Shown here: piece by piece, positions 13,951 through 64,000 of the stretch
Layout of the letters: each line of letters opens with the position of its first letter
Numbering within the stretch: the first letter of the stretch is position 1
NCBI RefSeq assembly: GCF_016432865.1
Contig: NC_067403.1
Span: 258,602,001-258,666,000, forward strand
Origin: Antechinus flavipes
Taxonomy: Eukaryota
Length of the DNA: 64,000 nt
Direction of reading: 5' to 3'
Notes under the pieces: generated by a model
What the model was told of the DNA's origin: nothing
Seen by the model: the letters and a program-made list of their open reading frames with translations, nothing else
The model's database searches: none
Translations under genes and position numbers: made by a program

Positions 13951-14916
13951 TTAGCCTCCTGATGAAGTCTCCTGGGTGTTGGTGTGGGGGATGTCCCTCA
14001 TCCCACCTCCCACCTCCTGCTCCTCCCCCAGGGCTCTCTGCAGGATCAGCCTGAGAGACTCCCTCCCTTTATGCCCTTGTTTTCCCAGGAAGAAGTAAAT
14101 GAAGGGGTTCACGCTGCTGTTCACACAAGCCAGGGAATGAGGGAGGATATCTGGCATAAGTTCTATTCTGAAGCGATCATTTATGAAACCTTCGATCCCC
14201 CAGGGCAGGCCGCAGAGCAGGAACACAAGGACTGTGAGCAGGACCAGGAGGTAGAGTCTGGGGGGCCGCCGGCGCCGGGAGCTGCACTGGACCCGCAGCA
14301 GCAGAGTCAGGCTGGACACGCACAGGATGCAGGTGAGGAGGACGAAACACACAAAATAGATAGTGAGGAAGTTGCAGAAACGGCGAGGGGCCAAATAATT
14401 CCGAGTGACAAACTCTGTGACTTCGATCACTCCGGCCTGAGCCCAGAGCCCGGCGCAGACCGCGGCCGACGTGTGCTTGGGGCGGCGACATCGGTACCAG
14501 AGGGGGAAGAGTGCGGAGAGACAGCGCTCGGTGCTGATCGCCGCCAGGAGGCTCAGGCCCGCAGTGTAGGACATGCATTGGAGGTAGAGCACGACCATGT
14601 ACATTATATAATAAAAACAGGTAGCAAGTCTTCTCAAGGAGATCAGAAAAGAGCAGCACAGGAAGAGGGCGTCGGCCCCCGCCAGGTTGAGGATGTAGAC
14701 AGAATAGGGGGTCCTCCTGATGCGGAAGCCCAGGAGCCACAGGACCGTTCCGTTCCCCAGCAGCCCAAGGGAGGTAACAAGCAGAGAGAACACGTCCATC
14801 CAGTCATAAGAATGAAATCCTCCAGGTGTCCCAGAAGCCTCACTCTCATTTAGCCTTCCCTCCGTAGCACTGCCATTACCATATTCCTGTTGCTGGGGTG
14901 TAGGGGACACAGCCAT
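13951..14916 (-). CDS. G1: Mas-related G protein-coupled receptor (MRGPRX/D-like), 321 aa, intact
   Basis: 7 hydrophobic segments; GLLGNGTVLWLLGF (TM1), YILNLAGAD (TM2), SY.AGLSLLAAISTERC (DRY variant), LCGLP (Gly at 6.48), NPFIY, helix-8 SLRLILQRAL; N-glycosylation sequons N14 and N23; Kozak CCACCATGG. Orthology to a specific human member cannot be assigned. Confidence 0.96.
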   Translation of the reverse strand: MAVSPTPQQQEYGNGSATEGRLNESEASGTPGGFHSYDWMDVFSLLVTSLGLLGNGTVLWLLGFRIRRTPYSVYILNLAGADALFLCCSFLISLRRLATCFYYIMYMVVLYLQCMSYTAGLSLLAAISTERCLSALFPLWYRCRRPKHTSAAVCAGLWAQAGVIEVTEFVTRNYLAPRRFCNFLTIYFVCFVLLTCILCVSSLTLLLRVQCSSRRRRPPRLYLLVLLTVLVFLLCGLPWGIEGFINDRFRIELMPDILPHSLACVNSSVNPFIYFFLGKQGHKGRESLRLILQRALGEEQEVGGGMRDIPHTNTQETSSGG

Positions 14917-14961
14917 GGTGGGGGGTCCCAGCCCCAGAAAGCCCTGTTCCTCTCAGATGCC

Positions 14962-14986
14962 CTGGGGATGCAGAGACAGAGAAGGG
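14962..14986 (-). promoter_or_regulatory. Splice acceptor of the G1 coding exon (45 nt upstream of ATG)
   Basis: Minus strand cccttctctgtctctgcatccccAG|GGCATCTGA; an in-frame TGA follows, so the upstream exon(s) are non-coding. Conserved at 31713 (G2) and 48315 (G3), 45 nt from the ATG in each. Fits the known MRGPR layout of 5'UTR exon(s) plus one coding exon. Confidence 0.8.
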
Positions 14987-16045
14987 CTTACTCCCATCTC
15001 CGCCTTCAAGAGTTAGAGCCTCTCCTCCCCACAAGTGTAGGTCAAAGGTAAGCAATGAATAATATTCTAGTCTCACTTACTAGTGAGAGAAAGGGTTATT
15101 TCACTCATATTGGTAACCAATTGTTCAATTAGAATGAAGACTTTTTCATTCCTATTTACTCATTCAGAAACCAGCCTCTTGTAGGTTATTAAATAAGTTT
15201 CCAAAGGACATTGCTGATACATGAGATACATGGGATTTTATTGATCTATCTCTCAAGATCAGTTTAGAACATTGCTAAACTCTGCATCATTCTCATTTTT
15301 TCTTCCTGTGGTTACACTTGGGCAAAAAGTCTAGAGAATGGAAATTTAGCCAGCTCTTCTATATACTAGAGATTGAACCAAAACAGCGCTTTCAATGGGT
15401 GAATCCATTTGGCAAATTTGACTAAAGCAATTTTGTTCCTCAATTACATCTTTTGATAAGACTCTAAAAGAATTGTTTCATAAAATACATCCTGATTAAT
15501 TGATTGATAGAGAAAGGATTATCTCTTAACTCTGGCTTTGTTCTGGGATTTCTTTGGGTAACTGAAAGAAACAAGGAAGCAGTACTGAGAGGGTGGGAGA
15601 GTAATCATGAATTTATATTCTAAATATAAGCAACAAAAAATAATGGAAACATGTGCACTGAGATTTAGTTATTGTCACTAATCATTTTAAATCAAAATTG
15701 ATTGTGTTGAAAATATTGTAATGGGAGGAAATTAGATAACTAAATGAGTCTTTATATGTACAAAAGGAATAAAATATATTTGCACCTATTTTCCAGGAGT
15801 AAGATCTGAAGGGACCACAGACCCTTTAATAAACTGTCATTGGCTCAGAGCTTTCCCTCAGTCTATCTTATTGCAGGCTGGACATTTTAAATCTTTACAT
15901 CACCACAACTAACTATCACATGAGCTAAATTCGATATGTTCCACATCCTTAGTCAACCACTTCTAGAAAGGAGAGAAGGAAATGAAACAGTTTCTTCCCT
16001 GATTTTTCTGTGTCAAACTGCAATAAACATTTGCTCGGTACTTAC

Positions 16046-16146
16046 CTCTTGGAGATTCTGGCTCCAGACTCATTTTTACCACTGAGCTTGGTGTTGGAAT
16101 ACAAGGACAATGAAATCATCCCTATCTTGAAGTAGCTGCTGTCCTA
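16046..16146 (-). other. Candidate 101-nt 5'UTR cassette exon in an antisense L2-like relic (paralogs 3664-3764, 32795-32895; donor lost near 49395)
   Basis: Minus strand ctgctctcccctgcctcctctcAG|...ccaagAG|GTAAGT; same 101-nt length in three units. The plus strand reads like an L2 3' end (aataaacatttgct..gtac.tac). Confidence 0.45.
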
Positions 16147-17849
16147 CTGAGAGGAGGCAGGGGAGAGCAGAATGCAACCCCAGGTGTTCACCTTATGCCA
16201 AACCAGATAATTGATCAGCACAGAATATGCCTAACAGTAGACATATGGGATTGTTGATTGCTATGGCTTCAGTTTCTCTTTATTGACAAATGATGAGATT
16301 TAGGGCCAAATGTCTGGGAAAGGATACATCAGTTAACTCAGACTAAGAATAGGAAAAAATTAAGGAGATGTGGGATTCACTCATATCCTGAGCCAGAACC
16401 TGCATCTGGAGGATTGGGAACATGATCTTTCATGGCCTTGTTCAGAGACTACTTAAGGGCTCCAAACTGATTCTCCCTCCCAGCTGGGGGCCATATTACA
16501 AAGAGTTTGAAGGTTGGATGTTGTTTTTGCCCTCCAAGGGGAAAAGAAAGCATAAGACCTCAGACGCAGAATTTTCTGCTGCTCCCCACTTCCCAGGCTA
16601 ATGTTTTCCAGCTGTGCACACAAATTTATAAAGAATTAAACTCACCAAAATCTTCAATTGATTCGACGAAGACAAATAATGATGAAGAAAGGGTCCAGAC
16701 TCTAAACTTCCCTTTTTCCTTCCCAGATTCCTGTCCCTGATACTGCAATTGAGGCATGTATCTGTTCTCACTGGGACATGAGAGTGAAGATAGGAGCAAG
16801 ATTCAGGATAGTTCCTCTCTTTCCATTATATACAGTCCCCTCCCCTTCTCCCAGTTATACTTACCTAGTCTAAAAGACTTTCTATTTGCTTTCTTACTGG
16901 AGAGATGAAGATTTTTTCCAAACTCTGATGTCAGGTAATAAATTCCCTAAAGCTTTCAAGTGCAGATAAAACTTCCTGAATGGTGTTGCTTTGGAAAAGA
17001 CTTTGATTCTCTGTTAACACTGACCTTTACAGTAGGACTTAAGAGGAATAATATGTTAGATTGATCTGGCCCATTATCCCCAATTAACTGGTCTTTCCCA
17101 TTATCCTTGCATGTATTTCAGTCATGGTAGTTACACTTGAGGGAAAGAAAAAAACATTCCCTATTGTTCACAGGTCCATTAGGTCCTTTTCAAGCTCTTA
17201 CAGAACTTTTCTGAAAAGAAATTGTGTATTCTCTTGTTGCCAGAGTTTTATACAGATTGAAGAGGCTCAGGTTTTTTCAAACTACAAGTAGGTATTGGAA
17301 TGAGGCTTTGAGTGGCTGGATCCATGGATTTCAAGGTTCCAATAAGGAAAAATGTATATACAGTTATGAAGACACATATAGACATATAAATATATATGTG
17401 TGTTTGTGTGTGTACATTTCCTCATTCACATAATATATAATACATCATACATATATTTACAAGAATGTACAGTAATATACACAAATAAGCACACAGTGAA
17501 ATGTACCTTTTTATAACCACTTATTTTTATAATTTCTTATTTTTCTAAATAATAGCTTTATTGTTAAGGACCATGCCTAAGTGTGAAGGGACAGGTGGAT
17601 TCTCCAAGGGCCCCCACATCTGTGAATATAACCCACTTGAAGGAATTGCAAAGCAGCCTTGACTGATGCAGATGTGGCTTGTGAATTAGAGAATGAAATA
17701 CATTGGAGGCAAGAAGGCAGAGGGGAGAGGTCACAGAATGCAACTGCCTCTCGGTCTCCTTGTATCCTTATCTTCCTCTCACATGAAAGGATCATTCTGC
17801 TGGTCAGAATTAGATCCCCAGCAGCCACAAGCAGGTGGCTCCCATAATA

Positions 17850-18200
17850 CTTTATATCTTCAAAATATATGCAAATGTATTTTTCAACGATCTTCCTTGC
17901 AAAACCTTGTCTCCCAAAATTTTCTCCCTCTGTTTCCTCTCTCTCCTCCCTTTGACAGCAAGTAATCCAATATATGTTAAACATATGCCATTCTTCTATA
18001 TGTATTTCCACATATAGCACTTGGCACAAGAAAAATCAGATCAAAAAGAGGAAAAAATTAGAAATTTAAAAGGCAAGCAAACAACAACAAAATGGGGAAA
18101 ATACTAAGTTATGGTCCTCATTTCAGTCCCCACAGTCCTCTGTCTGGATGCAGATGGCTCTCTCGATCACAAGTCTATTAGAATTATCCTGAATCACCTC
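17850..18200 (-). mobile_element. Old L1 3'UTR fragment, antisense (paralogs about 34600-34945, 51220-51545)
   Basis: Same L1 3'UTR motifs, from a different subfamily than 11265. Confidence 0.8.
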
Positions 18201-24369: not shown

Positions 24370-24372
<3 letters not shown>

Positions 24373-24447: not shown

Positions 24448-24450
<3 letters not shown>

Positions 24451-25489: not shown

Positions 25490-26070
25490 TCATTCAGCTT
25501 AAATTAGGGCTTCTATTAAAGCCCCAAATACAGAATGGAAATTCCCGATTTTATTATGGCTGAGTTCTCCCTTGGACACTGCCATTTCTGATGCTTAAAT
25601 ATTGACTTTCCAAAATTATTATTACTAATTCATCTCTAAGAAATCACAGTGTTGGTGGGATTTTAGTAGCCATATTAGTAATGATAATGAAAAATGAAAA
25701 CTTAATGCATCCTAAGTTTCCAGGATAAGTCCTTGCCATGTGGCCAGAAAAGTAGTTCTCTTTTATGTAAGATGTGTTTTAGTTCTAGAATATAAACTTT
25801 ATCCACATGATGAACTGCACCCTTTTCCAGCTGGAAGCAGACAGTTCCAGTGGAAGACAGGGATTTCTAGCCCTTGTCCCCAGAATTTCTGCTTCCCAAG
25901 AAATAGAAAAGGGGGAAATGGTGGGTCACAGCCCAGGGACTACTGTCTAACCAAAAATTGTAAAGCAATTAAAATCTTTTTGCTCCTGATTTGTCTGCAA
26001 GAAAAGCCCCATCCTAACTTATCTTCCTTAACTCTCTTTTACCACTTTGTAGGCTATTAAGAATTGCTTG

Positions 26071-27173
26071 TAAACTGGGAAAACATTTTTATAATCAAAG
26101 GTTCTGATAAAGGTCTCATTTCCAAAATATATAGAGAATTGACTCTAATCTATAAGAAATCAAACTATTCTCCAATTGATAAATGGTCAAAGGATATGAA
26201 CAGACAATTCTCAGATGAAGAAATTGAAACTATTTATAGACATAAGATAATATGCTCCAAATCATTATTAATCAGAGAAATGCAAATTAAGACAACTCTA
26301 AGATACTACTACACATCTGTCAAATTGGCTAGAATGACAGGGAAAGATAATGGGGAATGTTGGAGGGGATGTGGGAAAACAGGGACACTGATACATTGTT
26401 GGTGGAATTGGGAACACATCCAGCCATTCTGGAGAGCAATTTGGAACTATGCTCAAAAAGTTATCAAACTGTGCATACCCTTTGATCCAGCAGTGTTTCT
26501 ACTGGGCTTATACCCCAAAGAGATACTAAAGAAGGGAAAGGGACCTGTATGTGCCAAAATGTTTGTGGCAGCCCTGTTTGTAGTGGCCAGAAACTGGAAA
26601 ATGAATGGATGCCCATCAATTGGAGAATGGCTGGGTAAATTGTGGTATATGAATGTTATGGAATATTATTGTTCTGTAAGGAATGACCAGCAGGATGAAT
26701 ACAGAGAGGACTGGCGAGACTTACATGAACTGATGCTGAGGGAAATGAGCAGAACCAGGAGATCATTATACACCTCAACAATGATACGGTTTGAGGATGT
26801 ATTCTGATGGAAGTGGATCTCTTCGATAAGGAGAGCTTTAATTGATCAAAGATGGACAGAAGCAGCTACACCCAGAGAAAGAACACTGGGAAATGAATAT
26901 AAACTGCTTGCATTTTGGTTTTTCTTCCCGGGTTATTTCTACCTTCTGAATTCAATTCTCCCTGTGCAACAAGAAAACTGTCTGGTTCTGCACACATACA
27001 TTGTATCTAGGATATCCTGTAACCCATTCAACATGTCAAGGACTGCTTGCCATCTGGGGGAAGGGGTGGAGGGAGGGATGGGAAAAATCGGAACAGAAGT
27101 AAATGCAAGGGATAATCCTGTAAAAAAATTACCCTGGCATGCGTTCTATCAATAAAAAAGTTATTTTAAAAAA
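26071..27173 (+). mobile_element. Young 5'-truncated LINE-1 (ORF2 C-terminus + 3'UTR + polyA), unit-B specific
   Basis: ORF 26064-26807 encodes the L1 ORF2 C-terminus (REMQIKTTLRY, CWRGCGKTGTLIHCWW, LCIPFDPA). G-rich 3'UTR, AATAAA and A tail. 12-bp TSD AAGAATTGCTTG at 26059-26070 and 27174-27185; TT/AAGA endonuclease site; empty sites at about 10496, 43695 and 59665. Confidence 0.97.
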
Positions 27174-30100
27174 AAGAATTGCTTGGTAAGTGCTAAATTT
27201 TAGAATTGCTAGTGTGCTAGATCTTCAGGTCTAGCAAACCTGCTGGCCTCCTTCCCCTAAAGAAAAGAAGGTTCCCTAATTTAAGGCCCACTTTTTCAGA
27301 GTAGCAGGGCCCCCAGGAAAGCTCAGTTTCTTTCCTGAGGTGCAAGGTGACCCAATAGTGAACCGGGTACTATTGGTTGGATTTATTTGGGGACTGCTCA
27401 GATAGATCATTCCATTTTGCATCGACTCTACTTTTCTGGGATGCTGGGATTGTGAGAGTCAGATATTGAGGATTGGGACTGGAACCTTCCTCTCAAAAGT
27501 GCCTACACACTACACACTACAAAAGGTAGTGTGTGAATGGGATTGGGTGCAAAACCCCATTTCCCAATTAACTGATCAGAGACATCATCAGGTACAAAGA
27601 GAAAGCATTTGTTTAATCCCCGCAGGGAGAGAACCACACATATCTGGGAGCTATCCCAACTCCCCCATGTACTCCTGGAATCTGGCCAGCTTCTGGCTTG
27701 TCCAGGACTTAAAAGCAAAAGACCCAAGCATTTTCATTGGGTAAACTAAAGGATGTAACCATCCTTGACCAACGGTCACCAATTCAGAACAGTGGTCTAT
27801 GTCTTTATCTCTCAATTCTTCTAAGGTTTGTGCCTGTGCTTCAGTATCTTTGACATGCTCCCCCCCATTTCTGGCATGAGGGATGGGGTAGTCACTGGTC
27901 CACAGACCTGTAGTAGGATACCTGGGTCCAAATTTTTCCAACCCTTTCCCCCCAGAGTCCTAAAGTATGCCAATGTCTTGTTTTAATTAAAGCTTTTTAT
28001 TTTTCAAAGCACATGCATAGATAATTTTTCAACATTGACTCTTGCAAAACCTTGTATTTCAAATTTCCCTCTCCTTTCCTTCACCCCCTCCCCTAGATGG
28101 CAAGTAAGCCAATATATATTAAACATATTAAAATATGTTAAATCCAATATATATATATATATACACGTATATGTATATATACACACATATATTTATACAG
28201 TTATTGTGCTGCACACACACAAACAAATTCAAAAAAGCAAAAATGAGAGAAAACAAAATGCAAGTGAACAACACCAAAAAGAGGGAAAATGCTATGTTGT
28301 GATCTACACTCATTTCCCACAGTCCTCCCTCTGAGTGCAGATGGCTCTCTTCATCACCGGATCACTGGAACTGATGTCTGCCAATTTCTTAAACCCTGTG
28401 GATGGACTGGAAAGGACAGTTTTCTGTCACCTTAAACTTTGAGGCTGTGTTTATGTTTAAATTGGAATCATTATTCTGAAATTGAATAAGATCATTACTA
28501 TTAACTATTGCATGCTAAACTTGTGAACTTGTTTATTGTGGTATAAGACTTTAGAAATATATGTGCATTGAAGTATTGTTACTAGAAATTTTAATCCATA
28601 TTTGATTTGATTTTCAGTTCAAATTTTTTTTGGTTCTCTGGTAACTTACCTAAAGAAGTCACATGTTTATATCTCCTAATTAGATGAAACACATGGGAAA
28701 AAGGAGGACCCATATTCCAGGTATAATTTTGTGACAGTTCATTCAAAAGTTTGGAGAGGCTGCTTCTAGATGTACTTGAGGGAGTGAAGAGCTTTATCTG
28801 CCCCCTTTAGAATATGGACAGGGATTCCTTGAGAGGGTCTTCTTGACTTCTGGTAGGATGATGAAATTCCCTTTTTTTGCTGGTGTCTACATTGGTACAA
28901 GGCAGAGCACACTGTGCATGCTATGAGTACTCGGCTCATTTTCAAGCTACACAAAGTTGTTTGCAAACCTTTTTGTTACTTACAATTATTTTACTGAGGT
29001 AAAATGTTTACCAACTTTTTACCAAACTGCTTTTCAGAAACCCCTTTTATGCTGCAACAACATCATGCTGAGCAATTTCCTGATCTCTTTCTGGTCGATC
29101 AGCATCCTTCTGCTAGCCTTTCCACCTTGGTCAAACATTCCCCTTTGTGTTCCAATGTTCAAATAAATTCGTTGCTCCTGTGCTCCCCTTCCAACAGGAA
29201 CCTTTATATACATTTTCCATTATGACTGAGGGGAAATTATACAAGGAATATTGAAATGGTTAAACATAAAGAAAACTATCAACATAGTTGATCACATGGA
29301 TAATAAAAGTTAAGAAGAACTATGAGTTTACACCACTTAGTGTCTGAACCAAGTATAATATGGAACTTGAAACCACTGAGGACAAAATAAGATCATTGTC
29401 ACTTATGGAATCAAATGGGGCTGAATGATTTTCCCAATTGAGATATTACCTAGGAAATGGTTCTTGAGTATATATGTGTGTGTTTCCTGTGTTGTATGCA
29501 CATTGTATATGTTTGTGTGGTGTATGTGATATATATATGTGTGAAATGATGTGTCTCCTTCCCTTGTATTGGTCTCATTAGTTTGTGCCCTGTCATATAT
29601 CACCCCTACAATACCTGCATTCATCAGGAACAGGGTCATGATTGACCTGGAATGGGAGATTGGAATAGAATCAAAGAAACCCAGAGAGACCTGGACAGAG
29701 AGGACATAAGCAAGGATGCTGAGCTCCAGTCTTGCCCTTTATCTAGAGAAAAAGATTTGGCTCAGCTGGGAGAGGAAGGGGTGGGGGGAAAGGAAAGGAG
29801 CCCTGGCAGGGAAGGGAGGGGGACATGACTAAGCTGAACTCTATTTTCAGGACAGAGGATATGCTTGGGGTAGGGACCCAGAGGCCTGAAGAACCTTGTG
29901 GATCAAGTCTGAGAGGAGACAAGATTGGCAGGGTCATAGTTCCTAGAACCTTGAAGAGTCTGACCTGAATCCATGCCTTCATTTACAAAATGACAGGGTG
30001 GCCTGGGCCCTTCAAGGATGGATTTCTTCTTCCTGTACTGTGTAGGACAAGGGCCATTTCTTGTAGAAGTTTCCTCTGGGCTGGTGCCATGTGAGACCCT

Positions 30101-30683: not shown

Positions 30684-31667
30684 TTATTTCTTGGGCCTCT
30701 TGTTCTTAGCCTCATGATGAGGTCTCCTGGGTGCTGGTGTGGGGGATGTCCCTCTTCCCGCATCCCACCTCCTGCTCCTCCCCCAGGGCTCTCTGCAGGA
30801 CCAGCCTGAGAGACTCCCTCCCTTTATGCCCTGTTTGCCCACGAAGAAATAAATGAAGGGATTCATGCAGCTGTTTACACAAGCCAGGGGCTGAAGGAGG
30901 CTATCAGGCATGAGGTCTATTCTGAAGCGAATATTTATGAAGCCTTCGATCCCCCAGGGCAGGCCGCAGAGCAGGAACACAAGGACTGTGAGCAGGACCA
31001 GGAGGTAGAGCCTGGGGGGCCGCCGGCGCCGGGAGCTGCACTGGACCCTCAGCAGCAGAGTCAGGCTGCACACGCACAGGACGCAGGTGAGGAGGAGGAG
31101 CCACACGAAATAGATAATGAGGAAGCAGAAACGGCGAGAAGCCCAATACTTCCCAGTGACAAACTCTGTGACTTCGATCACTCCGGCCAGAGTCCAGAGC
31201 CCGGCGCAGACGGCGGCCGACGTGTGCTTGGAGCGGCGACATCGGTACCAGATGGGGAAGAGCGCGGAGAGACAGCGCTCGGTGCTGATCGCCGCCAGGA
31301 GGCTCATTCCCGCAGTGTAGGACATGTATTGGAGGTGGACCACGACCGTGTATATTATAGGAAAAAAACAGGTAAGAAGGTTCATTAAGGACAACAGAAA
31401 GGAGCAGCAGAGGAAGAGGGCGTCGGCCCCCGCCAGGTTGAGGATGTAGACGGAGAAGGGGTTCCTCCGGATGCGGAAGCCCAGGAGCCACAGGACCGTG
31501 CCGTTCCCCAGCAGCCCAAGGGAGGCAACAAGCAGCGAGAACACGTTCATCCAAACATAAAAAGGCAATCCTCCAGGTGTCCCAGAAGCCTCACTCTCAT
31601 TTATCCTTCCCTCCGTAGCACTGTCATTACCATATTCCTGTTGCTGGGGTGTAGGGGACACAGCCAT
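30684..31667 (-). CDS. G2: MRGPR paralog, 7TM intact, 1-bp frameshift after NPFIYFFVGKQG gives a new 47-aa tail
   Basis: Same motifs as G1. The plus strand reads atgccctgtttgccc at about 30826-30840, versus atgcccctgtttgccc in G3 and atgcccttgttt in G1/G4. The homologous TGA is still present out of frame at 30712-30714. Confidence 0.88.
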   Translation of the reverse strand: MAVSPTPQQQEYGNDSATEGRINESEASGTPGGLPFYVWMNVFSLLVASLGLLGNGTVLWLLGFRIRRNPFSVYILNLAGADALFLCCSFLLSLMNLLTCFFPIIYTVVVHLQYMSYTAGMSLLAAISTERCLSALFPIWYRCRRSKHTSAAVCAGLWTLAGVIEVTEFVTGKYWASRRFCFLIIYFVWLLLLTCVLCVCSLTLLLRVQCSSRRRRPPRLYLLVLLTVLVFLLCGLPWGIEGFINIRFRIDLMPDSLLQPLACVNSCMNPFIYFFVGKQGIKGGSLSGWSCREPWGRSRRWDAGRGTSPTPAPRRPHHEAKNKRPKK

Positions 31668-37700: not shown

Positions 37701-38651
37701 TGAGGCGTGGTCTGATATGCACTTCAGTATTGAATTTTCTGGTTTAGAGGTGGGGCTGAGGACTAGTCCTGTGTGCACTTCACCATGTCTCAGAAACCCT
37801 GTCATCCTGATCAACAGATTGTTATCATAGTCAACAATGTTTGCAGGACTCCACTATAGTATTCCTAAGGCCAGGAGACTTTAAAATCATCCACAAACAG
37901 ATTGTTAGAACAATAGCATTCCTAAGGTCTGGGCGCTTCGGGATTACAAGCAGTTTGTACGCCAAATGAATTTGTGACAAAGGGAAGAAGGTTACATTTT
38001 TTTGGAACTGCTTCAGGCTGATAAGGGCTGTAGAGCTGGCCTTGTCTAGTGGGGTCCAGACTGAAGAGGGGAGAGACATGACTCAAAGGTGGTGGCAGCA
38101 GTATCCAGGGAGTGTTGAGTGTCAGAGTCAGGTATAAGGTAATATTCAGGTTAGCCAAGTATTTGGAATTTCATTCTTTGGAATCTGGAAGAAACAACTT
38201 TCACAAGTAGATTAAAAATTCAAGGACCAAAAGTGAACAAAAAAAAATAAACAAAAGTAAGTTAGTATGGGGGTTACCCCATACCAGGAACCCCACCCAG
38301 AGGAAGAGGGTTTGTTGGGGTAGAATAGATGAGGCTATCATGAGTGTCTCACATCCAGCCAGCTTTTCCTAGGAAAAGTACCAAAGAACATTTTCTCTAA
38401 TTCCCTGCTTTTTTCTTCTCAAAGGAGTAGGGTCAATGGAGGAATAGCAGCATTATACACAGTGCAAGGAGTGCTCAGGTGACCTCGGATACAAGGACCA
38501 TAATATTGAAAAGGCATTAAGACATTAAGTATTGGCTAGAAAAAATAAAATGCAGTGTGGAGATCATAATTAATCTTAAGTGCCTTGGCCGCAGCTTGGG
38601 TTCTTTGAGAAGTGAAACTGGGCTAATGACACTCTATAAAGAATTGGGCAG

Positions 38652-39303
38652 AAGGGAAAGGGACCTGTATGTGCCAAAATGTTTCTGGCTGCCCTGTTTG
38701 TAGTGGCTAGAAGCTGGAAAATGAAAGGATGCCCATCCATGGGAGAATGGCTGGGTAAATTGTGGTATATGAACGTTATGGAATATTATTGTTCTGTAAG
38801 AAATGACCAGCAGGATGACTACAGAGAGGACTGGCGAGACTTACATGAACTGATGCTAAGTGAAATGAGCAGAACCAGGAGATCATTATATACATCAACA
38901 ATGATACTGTTTGAGGATGTATTCTGATGGAAGTGGATCTCTTCGAGAAAGAGAGCTAATTCAGTTTCAATTGATGAAAGATGGGCAGAAGCAGCTACAC
39001 CCAAAGAAAGAACACTGGGAGATGAATATAAACTGTTTACATTTTTGTTTTTCTTCCCGGGTTATTTCTACCTTCTGAATTCAATTCTCCCTGTGCAACA
39101 AGAGAACTGTTCGGTTCTGGACACGTATATTGTATCTAGGATATTCTGTAACCTATTCAACATATAAAGGATTGCTTGCCATCTGGGGGAAGGGGTGAAG
39201 GGAGGGCGGGGAAAAATCGGAAAAGAAGTGAGTGCAAAGGATAATGGTGTAAAAAAATTACCCTGGCATGGGTTCTGTCAATAAAAAGTTAAAAAAAAAA
39301 AAA
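38652..39303 (+). mobile_element. Young 5'-truncated LINE-1 (~650 bp), unit-C specific
   Basis: ORF2 tail (ORF 38679-38927), 3'UTR and 16-nt polyA. 14-bp TSD AAAGAA(T/C)TGGGCAG at 38638-38651 and 39304-39317; empty sites at about 6319, 21907 and 55273. Confidence 0.97.
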
Positions 39304-41735
39304 AAAGAACTGGGCAGGCCAAAATGAGGCAAGAATTCCTTTAGCAAAAAAAAACTCAGTCTTTTCAGTCTTACAAAGGAATGCTTCTATCCAATTAGTA
39401 AAGGTGCCAAGAAAAGCCAAAAACAGTTTGACCCTCCTTCATGTACGGGGCATCTGTGTAAAAGCTTTGATGAGGGGGGAGTTTGGCCCTCTGAGCAGAG
39501 ATTCCAGGGGGAGAGAGACTTAGCCTCCAAGGTGCTATTGAGACTCACCACAGAGTAACCTGTCTTCCTTTGTCCATTTTCAAGAAAACGCCACCCACCA
39601 GTAAGTCATTCACTGACTGGGTTTTGAGAAGAATGTTCTGTTTTCCTAAAGTTCCCAAATTCTTAAATCTTCTGTTAACAGTCAGTGCAAATAGACTACA
39701 ATTCACATATCCCTTTAGGGGGCTTTGATTAGAGCTCCTTTAAAATTGCTTATACTATCATATCCCAAATAACAAATTTCAGTGAACTGAGTGTAGTTTC
39801 TTTCTCTTCCTCTCACCCCTTCATTCACATATCCCTGCTCCAGTCATGGAAAGTGGGAAGGAAGAAGAAAGAGAAAGAGACTCTCTTTCCTCTATTCACT
39901 ATCCTCTTAGTCTTGGGGAGGCCTTAATCTAATTGAATTTGCTTCCAAATTACATTATGCACACCCAAAAATCATTTGTCCCAACAATGGCATTGTATGT
40001 TGTTCATATTGAAAAACCCATGTAAAAATATCAAATATGAAGCAATTAAATACCATAAAGCAGTGAACATTCATATTGCATTTGTTTTTGCTAAGCACTT
40101 TTGCACTCATGTGATTGTCACAACACCAATCATCATTTCTCTTTACAAATCAGAAAACTAAGCTGAGATAAAATAATTTGCCAGAAATTACACAGTTAAT
40201 ACATATCCCAAACTGCCATAGAGAATAGTGGACTTACCAAATGCAGAGCTTGAGTGGCTTTCTCACCTTACACTGCCTGTTGAACACTGCCAGAGGCATC
40301 AGATTCTTCTCAAAAAGGCTGAACAGAACTTGCTGAAGGTTGGGGCAGTTGGTGCCAGGATCTCCCTTTGATGGTAGTTTCAAGTGCCAGGATGGAGGGA
40401 ATGCTGACTATGGTCCTGACCTCTATTTCCTCAAGCTGGATTGGCGAGCTGTTTGGATAAGGTATATGGCGTTTCCATGGCTGTTGCTGCATCAGTCTTG
40501 TTAGCAATCTCCACCACTGAGATACACTTAAGACTCCAGGGAGTGGAGCATGCTCAATGATCAGGTTTCTGGGATATTTCCCCAATGCAACAGAAGGAAC
40601 TTCAGACAAGATAGAAATCAAGAAAGGATAAGCAAAAAGTTACTTTAAATTTTTTTTTCTTTTTTCACGCCCTTCCTTCAGAACAGGGTAAATCCCAAGA
40701 ATTATCCCTAATGTTTCAAGAATTTTTCTTGCAATCTTAAAATGACTAATTGCCAAGGTGCTTAACTGTTGCTCTCAAAATCTTGAGAATCTGCTAAGAT
40801 ATTATTTGGCAATTCTATAATTTTAATTAGTTAACTTTATTTCTGTACACTTGGCCAGAGCTGGGGTCCAAAGAAAAAAGTCAGGTTTTTTCTCCTTTTA
40901 AGGTGAGAGTCAAGGATGTTAAAAAGTTTTTCCGAGCATTCCAACTGCAGTATACAAGTTTTTTTTCCTTGCTGGCTGTATTTTAAATCTTTCCAGGTAA
41001 CAGAATCTAGCTCACAAAACAAAACTGATGCAGACATTCTGTATAGAGATGTGGACATAGAAAAAAAGTCATGAAAGAAAACTGTCCCATTTTTTTTTTT
41101 GAAACAAAAAGTAAGATATGTCAACCCTAATATTTTCATCCTGCTCATCTAAAGCAGGGATGTCACAGTCGGTAACCACTTTGCTCACTGGGTAGTGAGT
41201 AATGGACTTGAACATAAAGGGGTAAAATGTACAACCCCACTTCTCTATGCTTAAGGGTAGCATTTTGTGTTTTTAGAGGTGTTTGAGTCCCCAGTGTTGC
41301 AAAGGGAACTAGTGTAAATGTCTGTCCATCTAAGATTTTAAAAATGTACTTTTCTCTCTATTATTCCTATCTCTGTGCTTTCATTTTTTTTTTTTTGCCA
41401 GACCCAGTTTGCCTTGTCTTTCCAATTCAAACTAATCTGAACTATTGCTAAGTTAACCTTTTGTCCTTGGAGGAGAGATTCAAGGTCCAAGACTGTTCTC
41501 CTTCATGATAAAAAATCTCTGCAGCTTGGAGTTATGTCCAGTCTCTCTGAATGTGTGATAGGCTCTCCTAAACCTTTTCCCCATATCCTGGAGTTACCTC
41601 ATTTTCCTTTAGATGGGGAATTTTCTGATTTAGAAGTGGGTTTGAGGACTAGTCTGCTATGTACCTCACCATTTGTCTCAAGTCCTAAAATACTCCTGTG
41701 ACCCCAAATACATAGAAGGTTGTATCTCTTTCAGC

Positions 41736-47306: not shown

Positions 47307-48269
47307 TCATGATGAGGTCTCCTGGGTGTTGGTGTGGGGGATGTCCCTCATCCCACCTCCCACCTCCTGCTCCTCCCCCAGGGCTCTCTGCAGGATCAGC
47401 CTGAGAGACTCCCTCCCTTTATGCCCCTGTTTGCCCACGAGGAAGTAAATGAAGGGGTTCATGCAGCTGTTCACACAAGCCAGGGGCTGAGGGAGGCTAA
47501 CTGGCATAAGTTCTATTCCCAAGCGAGTATATATGAAACCCCAGGCCCCGATGGGCAGGCCGCAGAGCAGGAACACGAGGACCGTGAGCAGGATCAGGAG
47601 GTAGAGCCTGGGAGGCCGCCGGCGCCGGGAGCTGCACTGGACCTTCAGCAGTAGAGTCAGGCTGGACAAGCACAGGACGCAAGTGAGGAATAGAAACCAC
47701 AGGAAATAGATAATGAGGAAGTTGTCACAGAAGGGTTGAGGAGCCACATACAACACAGTGACAAACTCTGTGACTTCGATCATCCCTGCCAGAATCCAGA
47801 GCCCGGCGCAGACCACAGCAGACAAGTGCTTGGGGCGGTGACATCGGTACCAGATGGGGAAGAGCACGGAGAGACAGCGCTCGGTGCTGATCGCGGCTAG
47901 GAGGCTCAGGCCCACGGTGTAGGACATGCATTGGAGGTAGACCACGACCGTGTATATTATAGGAAAAAAACAGGTAACAAGTCTCATTAAGGACAACAGA
48001 AAGGAGCAGCAGAGGAAGAGGGTGTCGGCCCCCGCCAGGTTGAGGATGTAGACGGAGAAGGGGTTCCTCCGGATGCGGAAGCCCAGGAGCCACAGGACCG
48101 TGCCGTTCCCCAGCAGCCCAAGGGAGGCAACAAGCAGCGAGAACACGTGCATCCAATCATAAGAATGAAATCCTCCAGGTGTCCCAGAAGCCTCACTCTC
48201 ATTTATGCTTCCCTCCGTAGCACTGTCATTACCATAGTCCTGTTGCTGAGGTGTAGGGGACACAGCCAT
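47307..48269 (-). CDS. G3: MRGPR paralog, 320 aa, intact
   Basis: Full ORF with all MRGPR motifs (TERC, LCGLP, NPFIY, helix 8) and Kozak CCACCATGG. Confidence 0.96.
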   Translation of the reverse strand: MAVSPTPQQQDYGNDSATEGSINESEASGTPGGFHSYDWMHVFSLLVASLGLLGNGTVLWLLGFRIRRNPFSVYILNLAGADTLFLCCSFLLSLMRLVTCFFPIIYTVVVYLQCMSYTVGLSLLAAISTERCLSVLFPIWYRCHRPKHLSAVVCAGLWILAGMIEVTEFVTVLYVAPQPFCDNFLIIYFLWFLFLTCVLCLSSLTLLLKVQCSSRRRRPPRLYLLILLTVLVFLLCGLPIGAWGFIYTRLGIELMPVSLPQPLACVNSCMNPFIYFLVGKQGHKGRESLRLILQRALGEEQEVGGGMRDIPHTNTQETSS

Positions 48270-48340: not shown

Positions 48341-51300
48341 TTACTCCCATCTCCACCTTCAAGCATTAGAGCCTCTCCTCCCCAGAAGTGTAGGTCAAGG
48401 GTAAGCAATGAAAAATATTCTAGTCTCACTTACTAGTGAGAAAAAGGGTTATTTCACTCATATTGGTAACCAATTATCCAATTAGGACGAAGATTTTTCA
48501 TTCCTATTAACTTATTCAGAAACCAACCCCTTGTAGGTTATTAAATCAGTTTCCAAAGGAAGTTGCTGATAGATGAGACATACGGGATTTTATTGATCAA
48601 TCTCCCACCATCAGCTTAGAACATTGCTAAACTCTGCATCATTCTCATTTTTTCTTCCCTTGGTTACACTTGGGCAAAAAGTCTAGAGATATGGAAATGT
48701 AGCCAGCTCTTCTCTACTACAAATTGAACCAAAACAGCGCTTTCAATGGATGAATCCACTTGGCAAATTTGATTAAAGCAATTTTGTTACTCAATTACAT
48801 CTTTTGATAAGACTCTAAAAGAATTGTTTCATAAAATACATGCTAATTAATTGATTGATAGAGAAAGGATTATCTCTTAACTCTGGCTTTGCTCTGGGAT
48901 TTCTTTGGGTAACTGAAAGAAACAAGGAAGCAGTACTGAGAGGGTGGGAGAGTCACCATGAATTATATAATTATATATATATGCAACAAAAAGTAATGGA
49001 AACTTACTTGCAATGAGATTTGGTTATTGTCACTAATCATGATAAATCAAAATTGATTGTGTTGAAAGTATTGTAATGGGAGGAAATTAGAGAACTAAAT
49101 GAGCCCTTATATGTATAAAAGGAATAAAATATATTTGCACCTATTTCCCAGAATTAAGATCTGAGGGGACCACAGACCCTTTAATAAACTGCCATTGGCT
49201 CAGAGCTTTCCCTCAGTCTAACTTATTGCAGGCTGGACATTTAAAATCTCCACATCACCACAACTAACCATCACATGAGCTAAATTCTATATGTCCCACA
49301 TCCTTAGTCAACCACTTCTAGAAAGGAGAGAAGGAAATGAAACACTTTCTTCCCTGATTTTTCTGTGTCAAACTGCAATAAGTATTTGCTCAGTACTTAT
49401 TTGGAGATTCTGGTCCCAGACTCATTTTTACCACTGAGCTTGGTGTTGGAATACAAGGACAATGAAATCGTCTCTACCCCGAAGTAGCTGGTATCGTACT
49501 GAGAGGAATCAGAGGGGAGCAGGATGCAGCCCCAGGTGTTCACCTTGTGCCAAACCAGATAATTGATCAGCACAGAACATGCCCAACAATAGATGTCTGG
49601 GACTATGGCTTCAGTTTCTCTTTATTGACAAATGATGAGATTTAGGGTCAAATGTCTGGGAAAGGATACATCAGTTAACTCAGACTAAGAATAGGAAAAA
49701 ATTAAGGAGATGTGGGACTCCCTCATACCCTGAGCCAGAATCTGCATTTGGAGGATTGGGAACATGATCTTTCATGCCCTTGTTCAGAGACTTCGTAAGC
49801 GCTCCAAACTCATTCTCCCTCCTAGCTGGGGGCCATATTTCAAAGAGTTTGAAGGTTGGGTGTTGCTTTTGCCCTCCAAGGGAAAAAGAAAGCATAAGAC
49901 CTCAGAAGCAGAAATTTCTGCTGCTCCCTACTTCCCAGGCTAATACCCAGCTGTGCACACAAATTTATAAAGGATTAAACTCACCAAAATCTTCAGTTGA
50001 TTCGAGGATGAAGAATAATGATGAAGAAAGGGTCCAGTTTCTGAACTTGCCTTTTTCCTCCCCAGATTCCTGGCCCTGGTTCTGCTGTTGATGCATGTAT
50101 CTGTCCTTCTCACTGGGAAATGAGAGTGGAGATAGGAGCAGGATTCAGGATAGTTCCTCTCTTTCCATTATATTCTGTCCCTTCCCCTTCTCCCAGTTAC
50201 ACTTATCTAGTCAAAAAGATTTTCTATTTGCTTTCATACTGGAGAGATGGAGATTTTTCCAAACTCTGATGTCAGGTAATAAATTCCCTAAAGCTTTCAA
50301 GTGCAGATGAGCTTCCTGAATGGTGTTGCTTTGGAAAAGACTTTGATTCTCTGTAAACACTGACCTTTACAGTAGGACTTAAGAGGAATAATATGTTAGA
50401 TTGATGTGGCCCATTATCCCCAATTAACTGGTCTTTCCCATTATCCTTGCATGTTTTTCAGTCATGGTAGTTACAACTTGAGGGAAAGAAAAAAAAAACA
50501 TTTCTTATTGTTCACATGGTCCATTAGGTCCTTTTCAAGCTCTTACAGAACTTTTCTGAAAAGAAATTGTGTATTCTCTTGTTGCCAGAGTTTTATACAG
50601 ATTGAAGAGGCTCAGGTTTTTTCAAACTACAAGTAGGTATTGGAATGAGGCTTTGAGTGGCTGGGACTATGGATTTCAAGGTTCCAATAAGGAAAAATGT
50701 ATATACAGTTATGAAGACACATATAGACATATAAATATATATGTGTGTTTGTGTGTGTACTTTTCCTCATTCACAAAATATATAATGCAACATACATATA
50801 TTTACAAGAACGTATAGTAATATACACAAATAAGTACACAGTGTAATGTGCCTTTTTATAACCACTTATTTTTATAATTTCTTATTTTTCTAAATAATAG
50901 CTTTATTGTTAAGGACCATGCCTAAGTGTGAAGGGACAGGTGGATTTTCCGAGGGCCCCCACATCTGTGAATATAACCCACTTGAAGGAATTGCAAAGCA
51001 GCCTTTACTGATGCAGATGTGGTTTGTGAATTGGAGAATGAAATAAATTGGAGGCAAGAAGGAAGAGGGGAGAGGTCACAGAATGCAACTGCCTCTCGGT
51101 CTCCTTGTATCCTTATCTTCCTCTCACATGAAAGGATCATTCTGCTGGTCAGAATTAGATCCCCAGCAGCCACAAGCAGGTGACTCCCATAATACTTTAT
51201 ATCTTGAAAATATACGCAAATGTAGTTTTCAACGATCTTTCTTGCAAAACGTTGTCTTCCAAAATTTTCTCCCTCTGTTTCCCCTCTCTCCTTCCTTTGA

Positions 51301-61912: not shown

Positions 61913-61917
<5 letters not shown>

Positions 61918-61948
<31 letters not shown>
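61918..61948. repeat. (GT)n microsatellite
   Basis: Read directly. Confidence 0.95.
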
Positions 61949-61950
<2 letters not shown>

Positions 61951-63185
61951 TTCCTGTGTTGTATGCATGTTGTGCGATATGTTTGTGTGGTGTGGGTGCT
62001 ATGTATGGGTGTGAAATGATGTGTCTCCTTCCCTTGTATTGATCTCATTAGGTTGTGCCCTGTCATATATCACCCCTACAACACCTGCATTCATCAGAAA
62101 CTGGGGCATGAAGAGTGCAGAGAGATTGGAATAGAGTCAGAGAAACTCAGAGAGACCTGGACAGAGAGGACACAAGAAGGGATGCTGAGCTCCAGCCTTG
62201 CCCTTTATCTAGAGAAAAGGATTTGGCTCAGCTGGAGAGGAAAGGATGGGGAGAAGGGAAAGAGCCCTGGCAGGGAAGGGAGGGGGACATGGCTAAGCTG
62301 AAATCTCTTTTCCTGGCAGAGCACAGAGTTGGGGTAGGAACCCAGAGGCCTGAAGGAACTTAGTGGATCAAATCTGAGAGGAGACAAGGTTTGCAGTCAT
62401 AGTTCCTAGAATCATGAAGAGTCTGACCTGAATCCATGCCTTCACTTACAAAATGACAGGGTGGCCTGTCCACCAAGGATGGATTCCTTCTTCCTGTACT
62501 GTTTAGGACAAGGGTCATTTCTTGTAGAAGTTTCCTCTGGGCTGATGGCATATGAGACCCTGGACCGCACTTCCTAGGTAAAGACGCCTCCAGCAAGCTA
62601 GAGGGCTTCAAAAAGCACAGAGCACAGGGCCTGGGTCAAGAAGCTCTGAATTCCAGTCTAGTCTCACATACACTGAATCTCTTCCTGCCTCAGTTTCCTC
62701 AAGTGTAAAATGAATATCCTGAGAGCACTTACCTCTCAGGTATATTGTGAGGATTAAATGAGATATTTGTAAAGCACACAAGAGGTTTCCTGGTATTTTT
62801 TCTGGTAAGTTTGTTCTTCAGTCATATGAGTGACTCATCTGGAGTTTTCTTGGCAGAGAATGGAGTGTTTTGCCATTTCTGTCTCTAGCTCATTTTTCAG
62901 ATGAGCAAATTGAGGCAAACAGAGTTAAGTGATTTGGTCAGGGTCACAGAGTTGGCAAGTGTCTCAGGCCAGATCCCAGTTGTTTCCATTCCAGATCCTG
63001 GAGCTCTACCTTCTGCCATCCCCACCTGCCTGGCTTACACTTAATAAATGTTTGCTCATCCCTTAGAATGGAAACTCTGGACACAAACCTAAAGAATGAC
63101 AGAGGGAATTGTGATTTTCCTGGCAGGGAGGTGGGAAGGGCTGCAGGTGGCCTGGAGCAGGGACTTATTTCTTGGGCCTCTAGCC

Positions 63186-64000
63186 TCATGATGAGGTCTC
63201 CTGGGTGTTGGTGTGGGGGATGTCCCTCATCCCACCTCCCACCTCCTGCTCCTCCCCCAGGGCTCTCTGCAGGACCAGCCTGAGAGACTCCCTCCCTTTA
63301 TGCCCTTGTTTGCCCACAAAGAAATAAATGAAGGGGTTCATGCAGCTGTTCACGCAAGCCAGGGACTGAAAGAGGCTAAAAGGCATGAAATCTATTTTGA
63401 AGCGATCATTTATGAAATCTTGGAGCCCCAGTGGCAGGCCGAAGAGCAGGAACACAAGGACTGTGAGCATGACCAGGAGGTAGAGCCTGGGGAGCCGCCG
63501 GCGCCGGGAGCTGCATTGGACCCTCAGCAGCAGAGTCAGGCTGGACACGCACATCACACAGGTGAGGAGGAGAAACCACAGGAAGTGGATGATGAAGAAG
63601 TTGGGACAGAAGGAGTGAGGAAACACATAATTCCGAGTGACAAACTCTATGACTTCTGTCATGCCGGCCAGAGCCCAGATCCCAGAGCAGACCTTGGCCG
63701 ACATGTGCTTGGAGCGGAGACATTGGTACCAGATGGGGAAGAGCACGGAGAGACAGCGCTCAGTGGTGATCGCGGACAGGAGGTTCAGGCTCGCAATGTA
63801 GAACATGTATTGGAGGTAGGCCACTACGTTGTACGTTATAGGATAAACACAGGTAAGAAGGTTCATTAAGGACAACAGCAAGGAGCAGCAGAGGAAGAGG
63901 GTGTCGGCCCCCGCCAGGTTGAGGATGTAGACAGAGAAGGGGGTCCTCTGAATGCGGAAGCCCAGGAGCCACAGGACCGTGCCGTTCCCCAGCAGCCCAA
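63186..64000 (-). CDS. G4: MRGPR paralog, N-terminus beyond the window end
   Basis: The frame is open from 63998 (GLLGNGTVLWLLGFRIQRTPFSVYILNLAGADTLFLCCSLLL...) to TGA at 63186. The ORF track start at 63881 is an internal TTG. Confidence 0.93.
   Translation of the reverse strand, partial: GLLGNGTVLWLLGFRIQRTPFSVYILNLAGADTLFLCCSLLLSLMNLLTCVYPITYNVVAYLQYMFYIASLNLLSAITTERCLSVLFPIWYQCLRSKHMSAKVCSGIWALAGMTEVIEFVTRNYVFPHSFCPNFFIIHFLWFLLLTCVMCVSSLTLLLRVQCSSRRRRLPRLYLLVMLTVLVFLLFGLPLGLQDFINDRFKIDFMPFSLFQSLACVNSCMNPFIYFFVGKQGHKGRESLRLVLQRALGEEQEVGGGMRDIPHTNTQETSS

What the first reader, a model, noticed from the sequence alone, without database searches (positions are those of the whole stretch)
13951..64000. 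Lineage-specific MRGPR array whose paralogs are conserved inside the cell and hypervariable around the ligand pocket
Seen: G1, G3 and G4 have essentially the same C-tail (GEEQEVGGGMRDIPHTNTQETSS) and ICL3 (VQCSSRRRR.PRLYLL). They differ heavily at ECL1 (LISLRRLATCFYYIMYM / LLSLMNLLTCFFPIIYT / LLSLMRLVTCFFPIIYT / LLSLMNLLTCVYPITYN), ECL2 (RNYLAPRRFC / GKYWASRRFC / VLYVAPQPFC / RNYVFPHSFC) and TM6-ECL3-TM7 (WGIEGFINDRFRIELMPDILPHS / IGAWGFIYTRLGIELMPVSLPQP / LGLQDFINDRFKIDFMPFSLFQS). Established: MRGPRX/A/B receptors of mast cells and itch/nociceptive neurons expand lineage-specifically and show positive selection at extracellular sites. Inference: this is an independent marsupial expansion diversifying ligand recognition (antimicrobial peptides, venoms, microbial or parasite products) on a fixed signalling module.
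Basis: partly seen in the sequence, partly recalled or inferred. Interest (0 to 1): 0.7.

Follow-up and report, generated by a model that had tools for sequence, protein, structure and literature searches.

The report
Marsupial itch-receptor array with shuffled pockets
A carnivorous marsupial carries a tandem run of genes related to mammalian itch and mast-cell receptors but on a marsupial-only branch; the parts predicted to form the ligand pocket change faster than neutral DNA, are partly shared in patches between copies and lack a cysteine pair that the human receptors need, which likely gives a separately evolved set of sensors whose ligands and expression are untested.

Summary
Confirmed. 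The window holds four Mas-related receptor genes (G1-G4) and a pseudogene in ~16.5-kb repeat units; G1 equals an Antechinus flavipes protein. A fifth copy and a second array lie nearby. Across 24 paralogs the predicted pocket segments have dN/dS 2.2-2.5 (p about 1e-16) and the core 0.33-0.42; 32 of 35 selected sites lie in the pocket. This survives multi-nucleotide and recombination controls. For G1-G5 alone it is weaker (1.6-2.0; not significant with multi-hit changes). Additions and corrections: pocket segments are shuffled by gene conversion (G3 shares TM4-ECL2-TM5 with G5); the identical tail likely reflects conversion as much as constraint; the genes form a marsupial-only clade beside MRGPRD/F, not at the MRGPRX site; the family's TM4-TM5 cysteine pair is missing in G1-G5 and in 78 of 135 clade members; G2's frameshift is absent from another individual. 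Ligands and expression are untested. The pattern is known from human and mouse MRGPRX/A/B, and this scan noted it before in lizard arrays. Ten literature searches found no marsupial study. A new variant of a known kind; moderate interest.

The parts
13951..14916 (-). G1 coding exon, 321 aa Mas-related receptor, intact
   Evidence: 100% identical to NCBI XP_051822888.1, Antechinus flavipes; model matches MRGPRX1/X2 structures
16046..16073 (-). Upstream short exon of G1 with GT donor, about 1.1 kb above the main exon
   Evidence: matches the N-terminal extension of the NCBI model
14575..14652 (-). G1 pocket segment 1 (TM2 outer - ECL1 - TM3 outer, 2.57-3.33)
   Evidence: dN/dS 2.9 over 24 paralogs, p 4e-9; 3.7 in G1-G5 with its own tree, p 0.02
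14350..14427 (-). G1 pocket segment 2 (TM4 outer - ECL2 - TM5 outer); keeps E4.60, lacks C4.64 and D5.38
   Evidence: dN/dS 1.9 over 24 paralogs, p 1.5e-4; 1.2 in G1-G5, not significant; residues
14134..14202 (-). G1 pocket segment 3 (TM6 outer - ECL3 - TM7 outer)
   Evidence: dN/dS 2.1 over 24 paralogs, p 2e-5; 2.2 in G1-G5, p 0.10
13960..14073 (-). Helix 8 and tail tract nearly identical in DNA among G1, G3, G4
   Evidence: 1-2 differences in 114 bases; 2 variable columns against a flank mean of 14.6
30684..31667 (-). G2; 1-base deletion near 30830 shifts the tail in this assembly; likely intact in other individuals
   Evidence: a 160-base contig of run X2 matches G2 at 30814-30972 with no other letter but has the extra base; G2 differs from G1 and from G3 at 18 codons there
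47307..48269 (-). G3 coding exon, 320 aa, intact; mosaic
47697..47837 (-). Tract of G3 (codons 145-190, TM4-ECL2-TM5) shared with the next-door gene G5 outside the window
   Evidence: 2 differing codons in 46 against 76 over the whole gene; run of 30 polymorphic sites, 0 of 2000 permutations
63186..64000 (-). G4, cut by the window end; intact 325-aa ORF starting 163 bases beyond it
517..1115 (-). Older MRGPR pseudogene with stops and frameshifts, 66-68% identical to the G1-G4 regions

Best explanation
G1-G4 are recent tandem copies in a marsupial-only branch of the Mas-related receptor family whose predicted ligand-pocket segments show positive selection and are likely re-assorted between copies by gene conversion, while the core is under purifying selection, which would give receptors with a common G-protein face and different ligands. 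Shown: the array, the clade, dN/dS above 2 in the pocket and below 0.45 in the core, conflicting genealogies along the gene, loss of C4.64. Inferred: duplication by unequal crossing-over between 16.5-kb units; short conversion tracts that copy one loop cassette (G5 to G3, direction inferred because G5's ECL2 is identical to its devil orthologue) and homogenise conserved stretches with a GC bias; a loosened TM4-ECL2-TM5 rim after loss of the disulfide. By analogy only: expression on mast cells or sensory neurons, Gq/Gi coupling, and cationic peptide ligands for G1-G5, which all carry E4.57 and E4.60.
For: 24 paralogs: pocket dN/dS 2.15-2.53, LRT 62-81; core 0.33-0.42; synonymous tree lengths alike (pocket 2.9-3.0, core 2.8-3.5). 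M2a vs M1a LRT 293; 32 of 35 sites with posterior above 0.95 fall in the 74 pocket columns of 314 (hypergeometric 6e-20), among them 2.60, 3.26, 3.29, 4.60, 5.38, 6.55, 6.59, 6.60, which line the MRGPRX1 pocket (PMC10286997, passages) or are selected in human MRGPRX (PMC3221663, passages). Controls: 39 gap-free helix columns 1.9-2.3; multi-nucleotide model 2.5, p 3e-14, and 2.0 on the strict columns; 20 neutral simulations with heavy recombination gave 0.85-1.19; 12 genes of the second array alone 3.0. G1-G5: M2a LRT 40 on one tree; pocket with a tree per segment 1.96, p 0.017, and M2a LRT 24, core LRT 0. Conversion: PHI-type test 0 of 2000 in the CDS, G3/G5 tract; best tree differs by segment. 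Clade and position.
Against: For G1-G5 alone the pocket estimate falls to 1.63, p 0.12, when double and triple changes are allowed, ECL2 alone is 1.2, and a whole-gene M2a with free branch lengths per segment gives LRT 3.9. Six older paralogs (L006, L007, L011, L012, L020, L024) give 1.43, p 0.057. Between Antechinus and devil orthologues the pocket is often hardly faster than the core (0.12 vs 0.10, 0.09 vs 0.07, 0.14 vs 0.07, 0.13 vs 0.09), so selection is likely episodic. Core dS is not lower than pocket dS after correction, so wholesale homogenisation of the core is not shown. Posteriors are naive empirical Bayes from my own code with fixed relative branch lengths. No ligand or expression datum.
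Confidence: 0.72

Rival explanations
1. Bursts after duplication, then stasis: each copy was tuned to a stable ligand (for example a host peptide or metabolite) and then held, rather than running an arms race with foreign molecules. This differs from the best explanation in tempo and ligand class, not in the fact of selection.
For: G5 and devil P0003 are identical in ECL2 (0 of 27) and ECL3 (0 of 23) segments; in 4 of 6 Antechinus-devil pairs of array genes the pocket differs by 0.09-0.14 against a core of 0.07-0.10.
Against: ECL1 of the same pair differs at 9 of 26; L010 and L021 pairs differ by 0.24 and 0.32; G1-G4 have no one-to-one devil partner and differ from the nearest ones by 0.28-0.51 in the pocket. 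Both arrays hold several broken copies, so turnover continues.
Confidence: 0.35
2. No selection: loops are unconstrained, and conversion from distant paralogs, multi-base mutations and misalignment inflate dN/dS.
For: Recombination is strong; the G1-G5 signal loses significance under a multi-hit model; loops have indels; even conserved MRGPRF has a somewhat faster pocket (0.13 vs 0.09, 0.25 vs 0.13).
Against: Relaxation gives 1, not 2.2-2.5; gap-free helix columns, the multi-hit model and recombination simulations leave the 24-gene result standing; first and second codon positions in the pocket differ by 0.19-0.20 against 0.089 in flanks.
Confidence: 0.08
3. The array is the marsupial co-orthologue of eutherian MRGPRX/A/B: one ancestral gene, expanded separately, with the eutherian copy moved to another site.
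For: In the best tree the array and eutherian X are sisters, support 54/80; G1 scores highest against MRGPRX-type chains among named human receptors.
Against: The alternative, single-copy L029 as sister of X, is only 2.05 log units worse (AU p 0.43), and L029 keeps E4.60, C4.64, C5.34 and D5.38 with MRGPRX2 as best hit. Five lineages form an open fork. No rodent A/B/C, human or monotreme rows were in the tree.
Confidence: 0.4
4. Assembly artefact: the copies or their mosaics are mis-joined haplotypes.
For: G2's frameshift is absent from an independent contig; L013 and L014 encode the same protein.
Against: Units differ by 7-10% over kilobases; the devil has matching genes; the G3/G5 tract is short and still differs at 2 codons; contigs of other runs match parts of G2 and G3 exactly. 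No contig bridges a whole tract junction.
Confidence: 0.03

Closest known systems
Primate MRGPRX1-4 and rodent MrgprA/B/C expansions
   Same: Coding sequence almost wholly in one exon, tandem lineage-specific expansion (PMC12937618, PMC2117022, passages), positive selection at 2.60 and 3.29 (PMC3221663, passages; Choi and Lahn 2003 and Zylka 2003 recalled, not readable here), G6.48, Y3.36, no C3.25, same fold (rmsd 2.0 A to MRGPRX1), E4.60 in G1-G5.
   Different: Separate clade; sits beside MRGPRD/F and, for the second array, beside an oxysterol-binding-protein gene, with no MRGPR match near the SAA genes; lacks C4.64 and D5.38; no ligand or expression known.
MRGPRD, MRGPRF (conserved single-copy members)
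   Same: Same family; immediate neighbours, 38-52 kb from the window start.
   Different: They keep the TM4-TM5 cysteine pair and MRGPRF changes slowly with no GC3 contrast.
Clustered protocadherins (regional gene conversion)
   Same: Tandem paralogs in which similar regions have high GC3 and specificity regions low GC3 (PMC1852091, passages); here GC3 tracks local paralog identity, rho 0.85 over 32 windows.
   Different: Unrelated proteins; in protocadherins the converted part is about 99% identical, whereas here core dS is not reduced after correction.
Lizard MRGPR-like arrays noted earlier in this scan; 'locally duplicated' sauropsid group of PMC6504862
   Same: Reported fast outer face, segment swapping and loss of the same bond (unchecked AI notes).
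   Different: Other lineage; not examined here.

Membership tests
Mas-related GPCR family (MRGPR/MAS) | Class A 7TM receptor, sequence and fold closest to MRGPR/MAS | tested here: met
   Pfam 7tm_1 in 4 of 4; the top 17 of 53 PDB sequences are MRGPR/MAS; the top 28 fold matches are MRGPR/MAS
Mas-related GPCR family (MRGPR/MAS) | Nests among MRGPRD/E/F/G/X in a tree rooted on MAS1 | tested here: met
   (100/98 and 100/97 nodes)
Mas-related GPCR family (MRGPR/MAS) | No C3.25; small residue at 6.48; Y3.36 | tested here: met
   G1 Y106, G236, Y117 in the alignment; features from PMC10286997 and PMC9287403 (passages)
Mas-related GPCR family (MRGPR/MAS) | TM4-TM5 disulfide C4.64-C5.32/5.34, described as conserved in the family and needed for folding or signalling | tested here: not met
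   C4.64 absent in 11 of 11 G-clade rows counted; 78 of 135 array-clade rows have fewer than two Cys there; present in 38 of 39 eutherian X-like rows. Sister genes keep it, so this is secondary loss; hence filed as a variant
MRGPRX / MrgprA/B/C subfamily | Falls inside the eutherian X clade | tested here: not met
   X-like rows form their own clade 100/100; array clade 100/99. Rodent A/B/C and human rows not in the tree
MRGPRX / MrgprA/B/C subfamily | Sister (co-orthologue) of the X clade | tested here: inconclusive
   54/80; alternative AU p 0.43
MRGPRX / MrgprA/B/C subfamily | Acidic pair E4.60 and D5.38 (D5.36 in one numbering) | tested here: not met
   E4.60 in G1-G5, D5.38 in none; both in 34 of 39 X-like rows by column count and in the L029 clade (9 and 11 of 11)
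MRGPRX / MrgprA/B/C subfamily | Location beside SAA/LDH/PTPN5 genes (human synteny recalled) | tested here: not met
   SAA family at C6 209.6 Mb, no MRGPR match near it among 79 (lower bound); array beside MRGPRD/F and a carnitine acyltransferase gene
MRGPRX / MrgprA/B/C subfamily | Expression in mast cells or dorsal-root-ganglion neurons | not testable with these tools
   no RNA holder listed
MRGPRX / MrgprA/B/C subfamily | Activation by cationic peptides through Gq/Gi | not testable with these tools
   needs assays

The most novel reading that the evidence does not exclude
Marsupials built their own itch/mast-cell-type sensor repertoire from a different ancestral Mas-related gene than placental mammals, repeatedly discarding the disulfide thought essential for the family and generating new specificities by swapping three loop cassettes on a scaffold kept uniform by GC-biased conversion, so that ligand specificity is modular and transferable loop by loop.
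Probability: 0.25. Interest if true: 0.65.

Novelty: new variant of a known kind. Interest (0 to 1): 0.42.

Why it matters
Fast pocket evolution in MRGPR arrays is established for humans and mice, so the main pattern will not surprise a specialist. What this adds is a replicate in a separate mammalian lineage, with selection at some of the same pocket positions. It also offers natural chimeras (G3 with G5's ECL2 cassette) that test which loop sets specificity, and apparently intact receptors that lack a bond whose removal cripples MRGPRX1 and MRGPRD. It warns that NCBI's 'X1/X2/X4/A-like' names for these genes do not imply orthology, and it points to single-copy L029 as an alternative MRGPRX counterpart in marsupials.

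Tried and rejected
Rewired disulfide between the ECL1 cysteine of G1-G4 and the lone TM5 cysteine: 6 of 8 G-clade rows with a lone Cys have it, but across 135 rows there is no association (10 of 26 vs 29 of 109, Fisher p 0.24), and the fold tool gives no coordinates; not claimed. Wholesale homogenisation of the core: raw dS is lower in the core (0.22 vs 0.47) but equal after composition correction. The GC3 mosaic is real (pocket 0.39-0.59, core 0.76-0.90 in 29 of 29 rows), yet single-copy MRGPRD and L029 show it too and MAS1 weakly, and a test of shared silent codons with distant members was inconclusive; cause left as likely, not shown. The first recombination simulation failed because the optimiser did not move, and its pairwise mismatch count was unreliable; both were discarded and the simulation redone. 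Expression: no RNA holder listed, no evidence either way. Holes in contig cover of G3 prove nothing. A Pfam search for MRPL21 found no match; the DHHC search could not single out ZDHHC13. The protein atlas gave no answer. Choi and Lahn 2003, Zylka 2003 and Noonan 2004 were not held and are cited from recall and reference lists. No complex prediction was run: no partner is known.
Full report
What is there. Four minus-strand ORFs encode class A receptors: G1 13951-14916, G2 30684-31667, G3 47307-48269 and G4 from 63186 to 163 bases past the window end. Each gene lies in a unit of about 16.0-16.7 kb, 85-92% identical to its neighbours, and an older pseudogene lies at 517-1115. G1 is 100% identical to an NCBI protein of Antechinus flavipes; of the best 120 of 725 relatives listed, all 118 that bear a name are marsupial. 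A short upstream exon with a GT donor lies about 1.1 kb above G1. G2 has a 1-base deletion near 30830. A 160-base contig of run X2 matches G2 without another difference but carries the base, in a stretch where G2 differs from G1 and G3 at 18 codons each, so the break is likely an allele or an assembly error.

Surroundings. The genome search gave 79 matches (a lower bound) in two arrays on contig C6, at 258.55-258.76 Mb and 260.74-261.45 Mb. The window's array abuts MRGPRD (best PDB hit 8e-76) and MRGPRF (90% to wombat MRGPRF), with a carnitine acyltransferase gene about 110 kb beyond them. The second array ends near an oxysterol-binding-protein gene, beside two genes that I label MRGPRE and MRGPRG from recalled motifs only (one search did not confirm E). 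SAA genes lie at 209.6 Mb with no MRGPR match near them. That human MRGPRD/F lie by CPT1A, MRGPRE/G by OSBPL5 and MRGPRX by SAA is recalled.

Family position. A FastTree of 208 rows (L014, P0173, P0177 and database copies of Antechinus proteins left out) and an IQ-TREE of 66 of them put the array genes in a marsupial-only clade (31 rows, 100/99; 94/93 with L028), apart from eutherian X-like genes (100/100). G1-G5 group with devil genes (100/99), so the subfamily predates the split of those genera; no dunnart member appeared among the hits listed. The fork joining the array, eutherian X, an afrotherian-xenarthran-marsupial lineage, the L029 lineage and E/G is open. Array plus X has 54/80 support, and L029 plus X is not rejected (AU p 0.43). 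No human, mouse A/B/C or monotreme rows were available. L029 is single-copy, 65-92% identical across ten marsupial hits, and keeps the MRGPRX pocket signature. So the expansion is independent; its orthology is unresolved.

Selection. Pocket segments were set by helix numbering (2.57-3.33, 4.56-5.43, 6.51-7.40); the AlphaFold model (pLDDT 81.7) gives the same helices and matches MRGPRX1 at rmsd 2.0 A. The set of 24 comprises G1-G5 (G2 cut at its frameshift) and 19 of the 20 loci L006-L025 (L014 duplicates L013); L026-L030 and broken copies were left out. With my own codon-model code, dN/dS is 2.15-2.53 in the pocket (LRT 62-81 against 1), 0.33-0.42 in the core, 1.5-1.7 in the N-terminus and 0.7-0.8 in the tail (not different from 1); synonymous tree lengths are alike, 2.3-3.5. 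ICL1, ICL2, ICL3 and helix 8 give 0.12, 0.40, 0.36 and 0.56. M2a beats M1a by 293, and 32 of 35 sites above 0.95 lie in the 74 pocket columns of 314. They include positions that contact ligand in MRGPRX1 (PMC10286997, passages) and 2.60 and 3.29, selected in human MRGPRX (PMC3221663, passages). The result holds on 39 gap-free helix columns (1.9-2.3), with double and triple changes allowed (2.5; 2.0 on the strict columns), and against 20 neutral simulations with recombination (0.85-1.19). For the five close genes alone: pocket pN 0.20, core 0.07, flanks 0.089; M2a LRT 40 on one tree; 1.96, p 0.017, with a tree per segment, and pocket-only M2a LRT 24. Against this: 1.63, p 0.12, under the multi-hit model, LRT 3.9 for the whole gene with free segment lengths, and 1.43, p 0.057, in six older paralogs. 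Antechinus-devil orthologue pairs often differ little more in the pocket than in the core, which suggests bursts after duplication.

Shuffling. Informative sites give incompatible genealogies in blocks (0 of 2000 permutations in the CDS; also significant in both flanks). G1 pairs with G5 over TM1-ECL1, while G3 pairs with G5 and G1 with G2 over TM3-TM5. G3 and G5 differ at 2 of 46 codons over codons 145-190 against 76 over the gene. G5's ECL2 segment is identical to that of its devil orthologue, so G3 is the likely recipient. Helix 8 and tail of G1, G3 and G4 differ at 1-2 of 114 bases, less than any flank window of that size. Constraint alone is not excluded for these three genes.

Base composition. 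Third-position GC is 0.76-0.90 in the core and 0.39-0.59 in the pocket in 29 of 29 rows, against flanks near 0.40. It follows local paralog identity (rho 0.85, 32 windows), unlike in F, E, G and MAS1 (rho -0.21 to 0.23), but like in D and L029 (0.59, 0.72). A non-stationary model gives equilibrium GC3 0.68 for the core, 0.51 for the pocket and 0.39 for the N-terminus; a singleton count gives 0.27 for flanks; the core is currently decaying from about 0.92. GC-biased conversion among similar segments, as argued for protocadherins (PMC1852091, passages), is the likely cause, but core dS is not reduced and the single-copy exceptions are unexplained.

Pocket chemistry. The C4.64-C5.3x disulfide is described as conserved in the family, and its loss nearly abolishes MRGPRX1 signalling and lowers MRGPRD surface expression (PMC10286997, PMC9287403, passages). 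It is possible in 38 of 39 eutherian X-like rows, 13 of 13 in the afrotherian-xenarthran lineage and 10 of 11 in the L029 clade, but in 0 of 11 G-clade rows counted; 78 of 135 array-clade rows have fewer than two cysteines there. Losses fall in separate clades of opossums (23 rows), bilby (2) and dasyurids (12, 33 and 2 at one open fork), plus single rows. G1-G5 all carry E4.57 and E4.60 but not D5.38, a hint of cationic ligands bound differently from MRGPRX2; this is inference.

Mechanism. Shown: tandem copies, marsupial-only clade, selection on the pocket, purifying selection on the core, mosaic ancestry, loss of C4.64. Inferred: unequal crossing-over makes copies, conversion moves loop cassettes and evens out conserved stretches, and selection favours new pocket residues, giving receptors with a shared G-protein face and different ligands. 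By analogy only: cell type, coupling and ligand class.

Prior knowledge. Expansion and pocket selection are established for eutherian MRGPRs (PMC12937618, PMC2117022, PMC3221663, PMC11910321, passages; Choi and Lahn 2003 and Zylka 2003 recalled). Ten full-text searches showed no study of marsupial MRGPR arrays or of gene conversion in MRGPRs. PMC6504862 (passages) names only a marsupial MRGPRH group and a locally duplicated sauropsid group; PMC12002115 (passages) uses an MRGPRH-like gene as a sugar glider mast-cell marker. The library lacks most subscription papers, no supplements were read, and genome papers may list this expansion there. Three unchecked notes of this scan report the same pattern in lizards; my reading, including the disulfide loss, was reached before I saw them.

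Verdict. Observation confirmed, interpretation partly supported. A real and well-supported case of a known evolutionary pattern in a separate lineage, with cassette shuffling and repeated disulfide loss as the variant features. Interest 0.42.

Noticed in passing
L029 (G000:C6:260918985-260919788): Single-copy MRGPR conserved across marsupials (65-92%) with E4.60, C4.64, C5.34 and D5.38 and MRGPRX2 as best PDB hit; a candidate MRGPRX counterpart, not resolved by the tree.
   Followed up: partly
P0131-P0139, P0141, P0145, P0158, P0163: A well-supported MRGPR lineage (100/99) shared by marsupials, afrotherians and xenarthrans, with no boreoeutherian row among the hits listed; possibly lost in that group. 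L041, frameshifted here, was not placed.
   Followed up: partly
PDB 8yfs_R / 9ust, named MRGPRE: Best PDB sequence hit of G1 (3e-63) but a poor match to the gene I take for marsupial MRGPRE (1e-44); its source species was not looked up.
   Followed up: no
window 49400-49425; G2 and G5 upstream exons: The upstream exon has lost its GT donor in G3 and its ATG in G2 and G5; two AG acceptors lie just above each main exon. The main-exon ATG still gives a full receptor.
   Followed up: partly
window 26061-27174: A 1.1-kb insert in the second unit with a reading frame that resembles the LINE-1 ORF2 end (resemblance recalled); part of it recurs at 38650-39306.
   Followed up: no
L013, L014, L017 (G000:C6:261.09-261.17 Mb): Three copies with identical or nearly identical proteins in the second array; very recent duplication or assembly duplication.
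   Followed up: no
L033 (G000:C6:258582876-258583751) and L040: Divergent intact MRGPR-like ORFs beside the arrays with no close relative in the trees.
   Followed up: no
L044-L047 (G000:C4:350.09-350.17 Mb): MAS1 and three MRGPRH-like genes (labels recalled) with lower GC3 than the C6 genes.
   Followed up: partly
window 13951-14916 and 47307-48269: Coding exons have CpG observed/expected 0.45-0.51 against 0.09 in flanks.
   Followed up: partly
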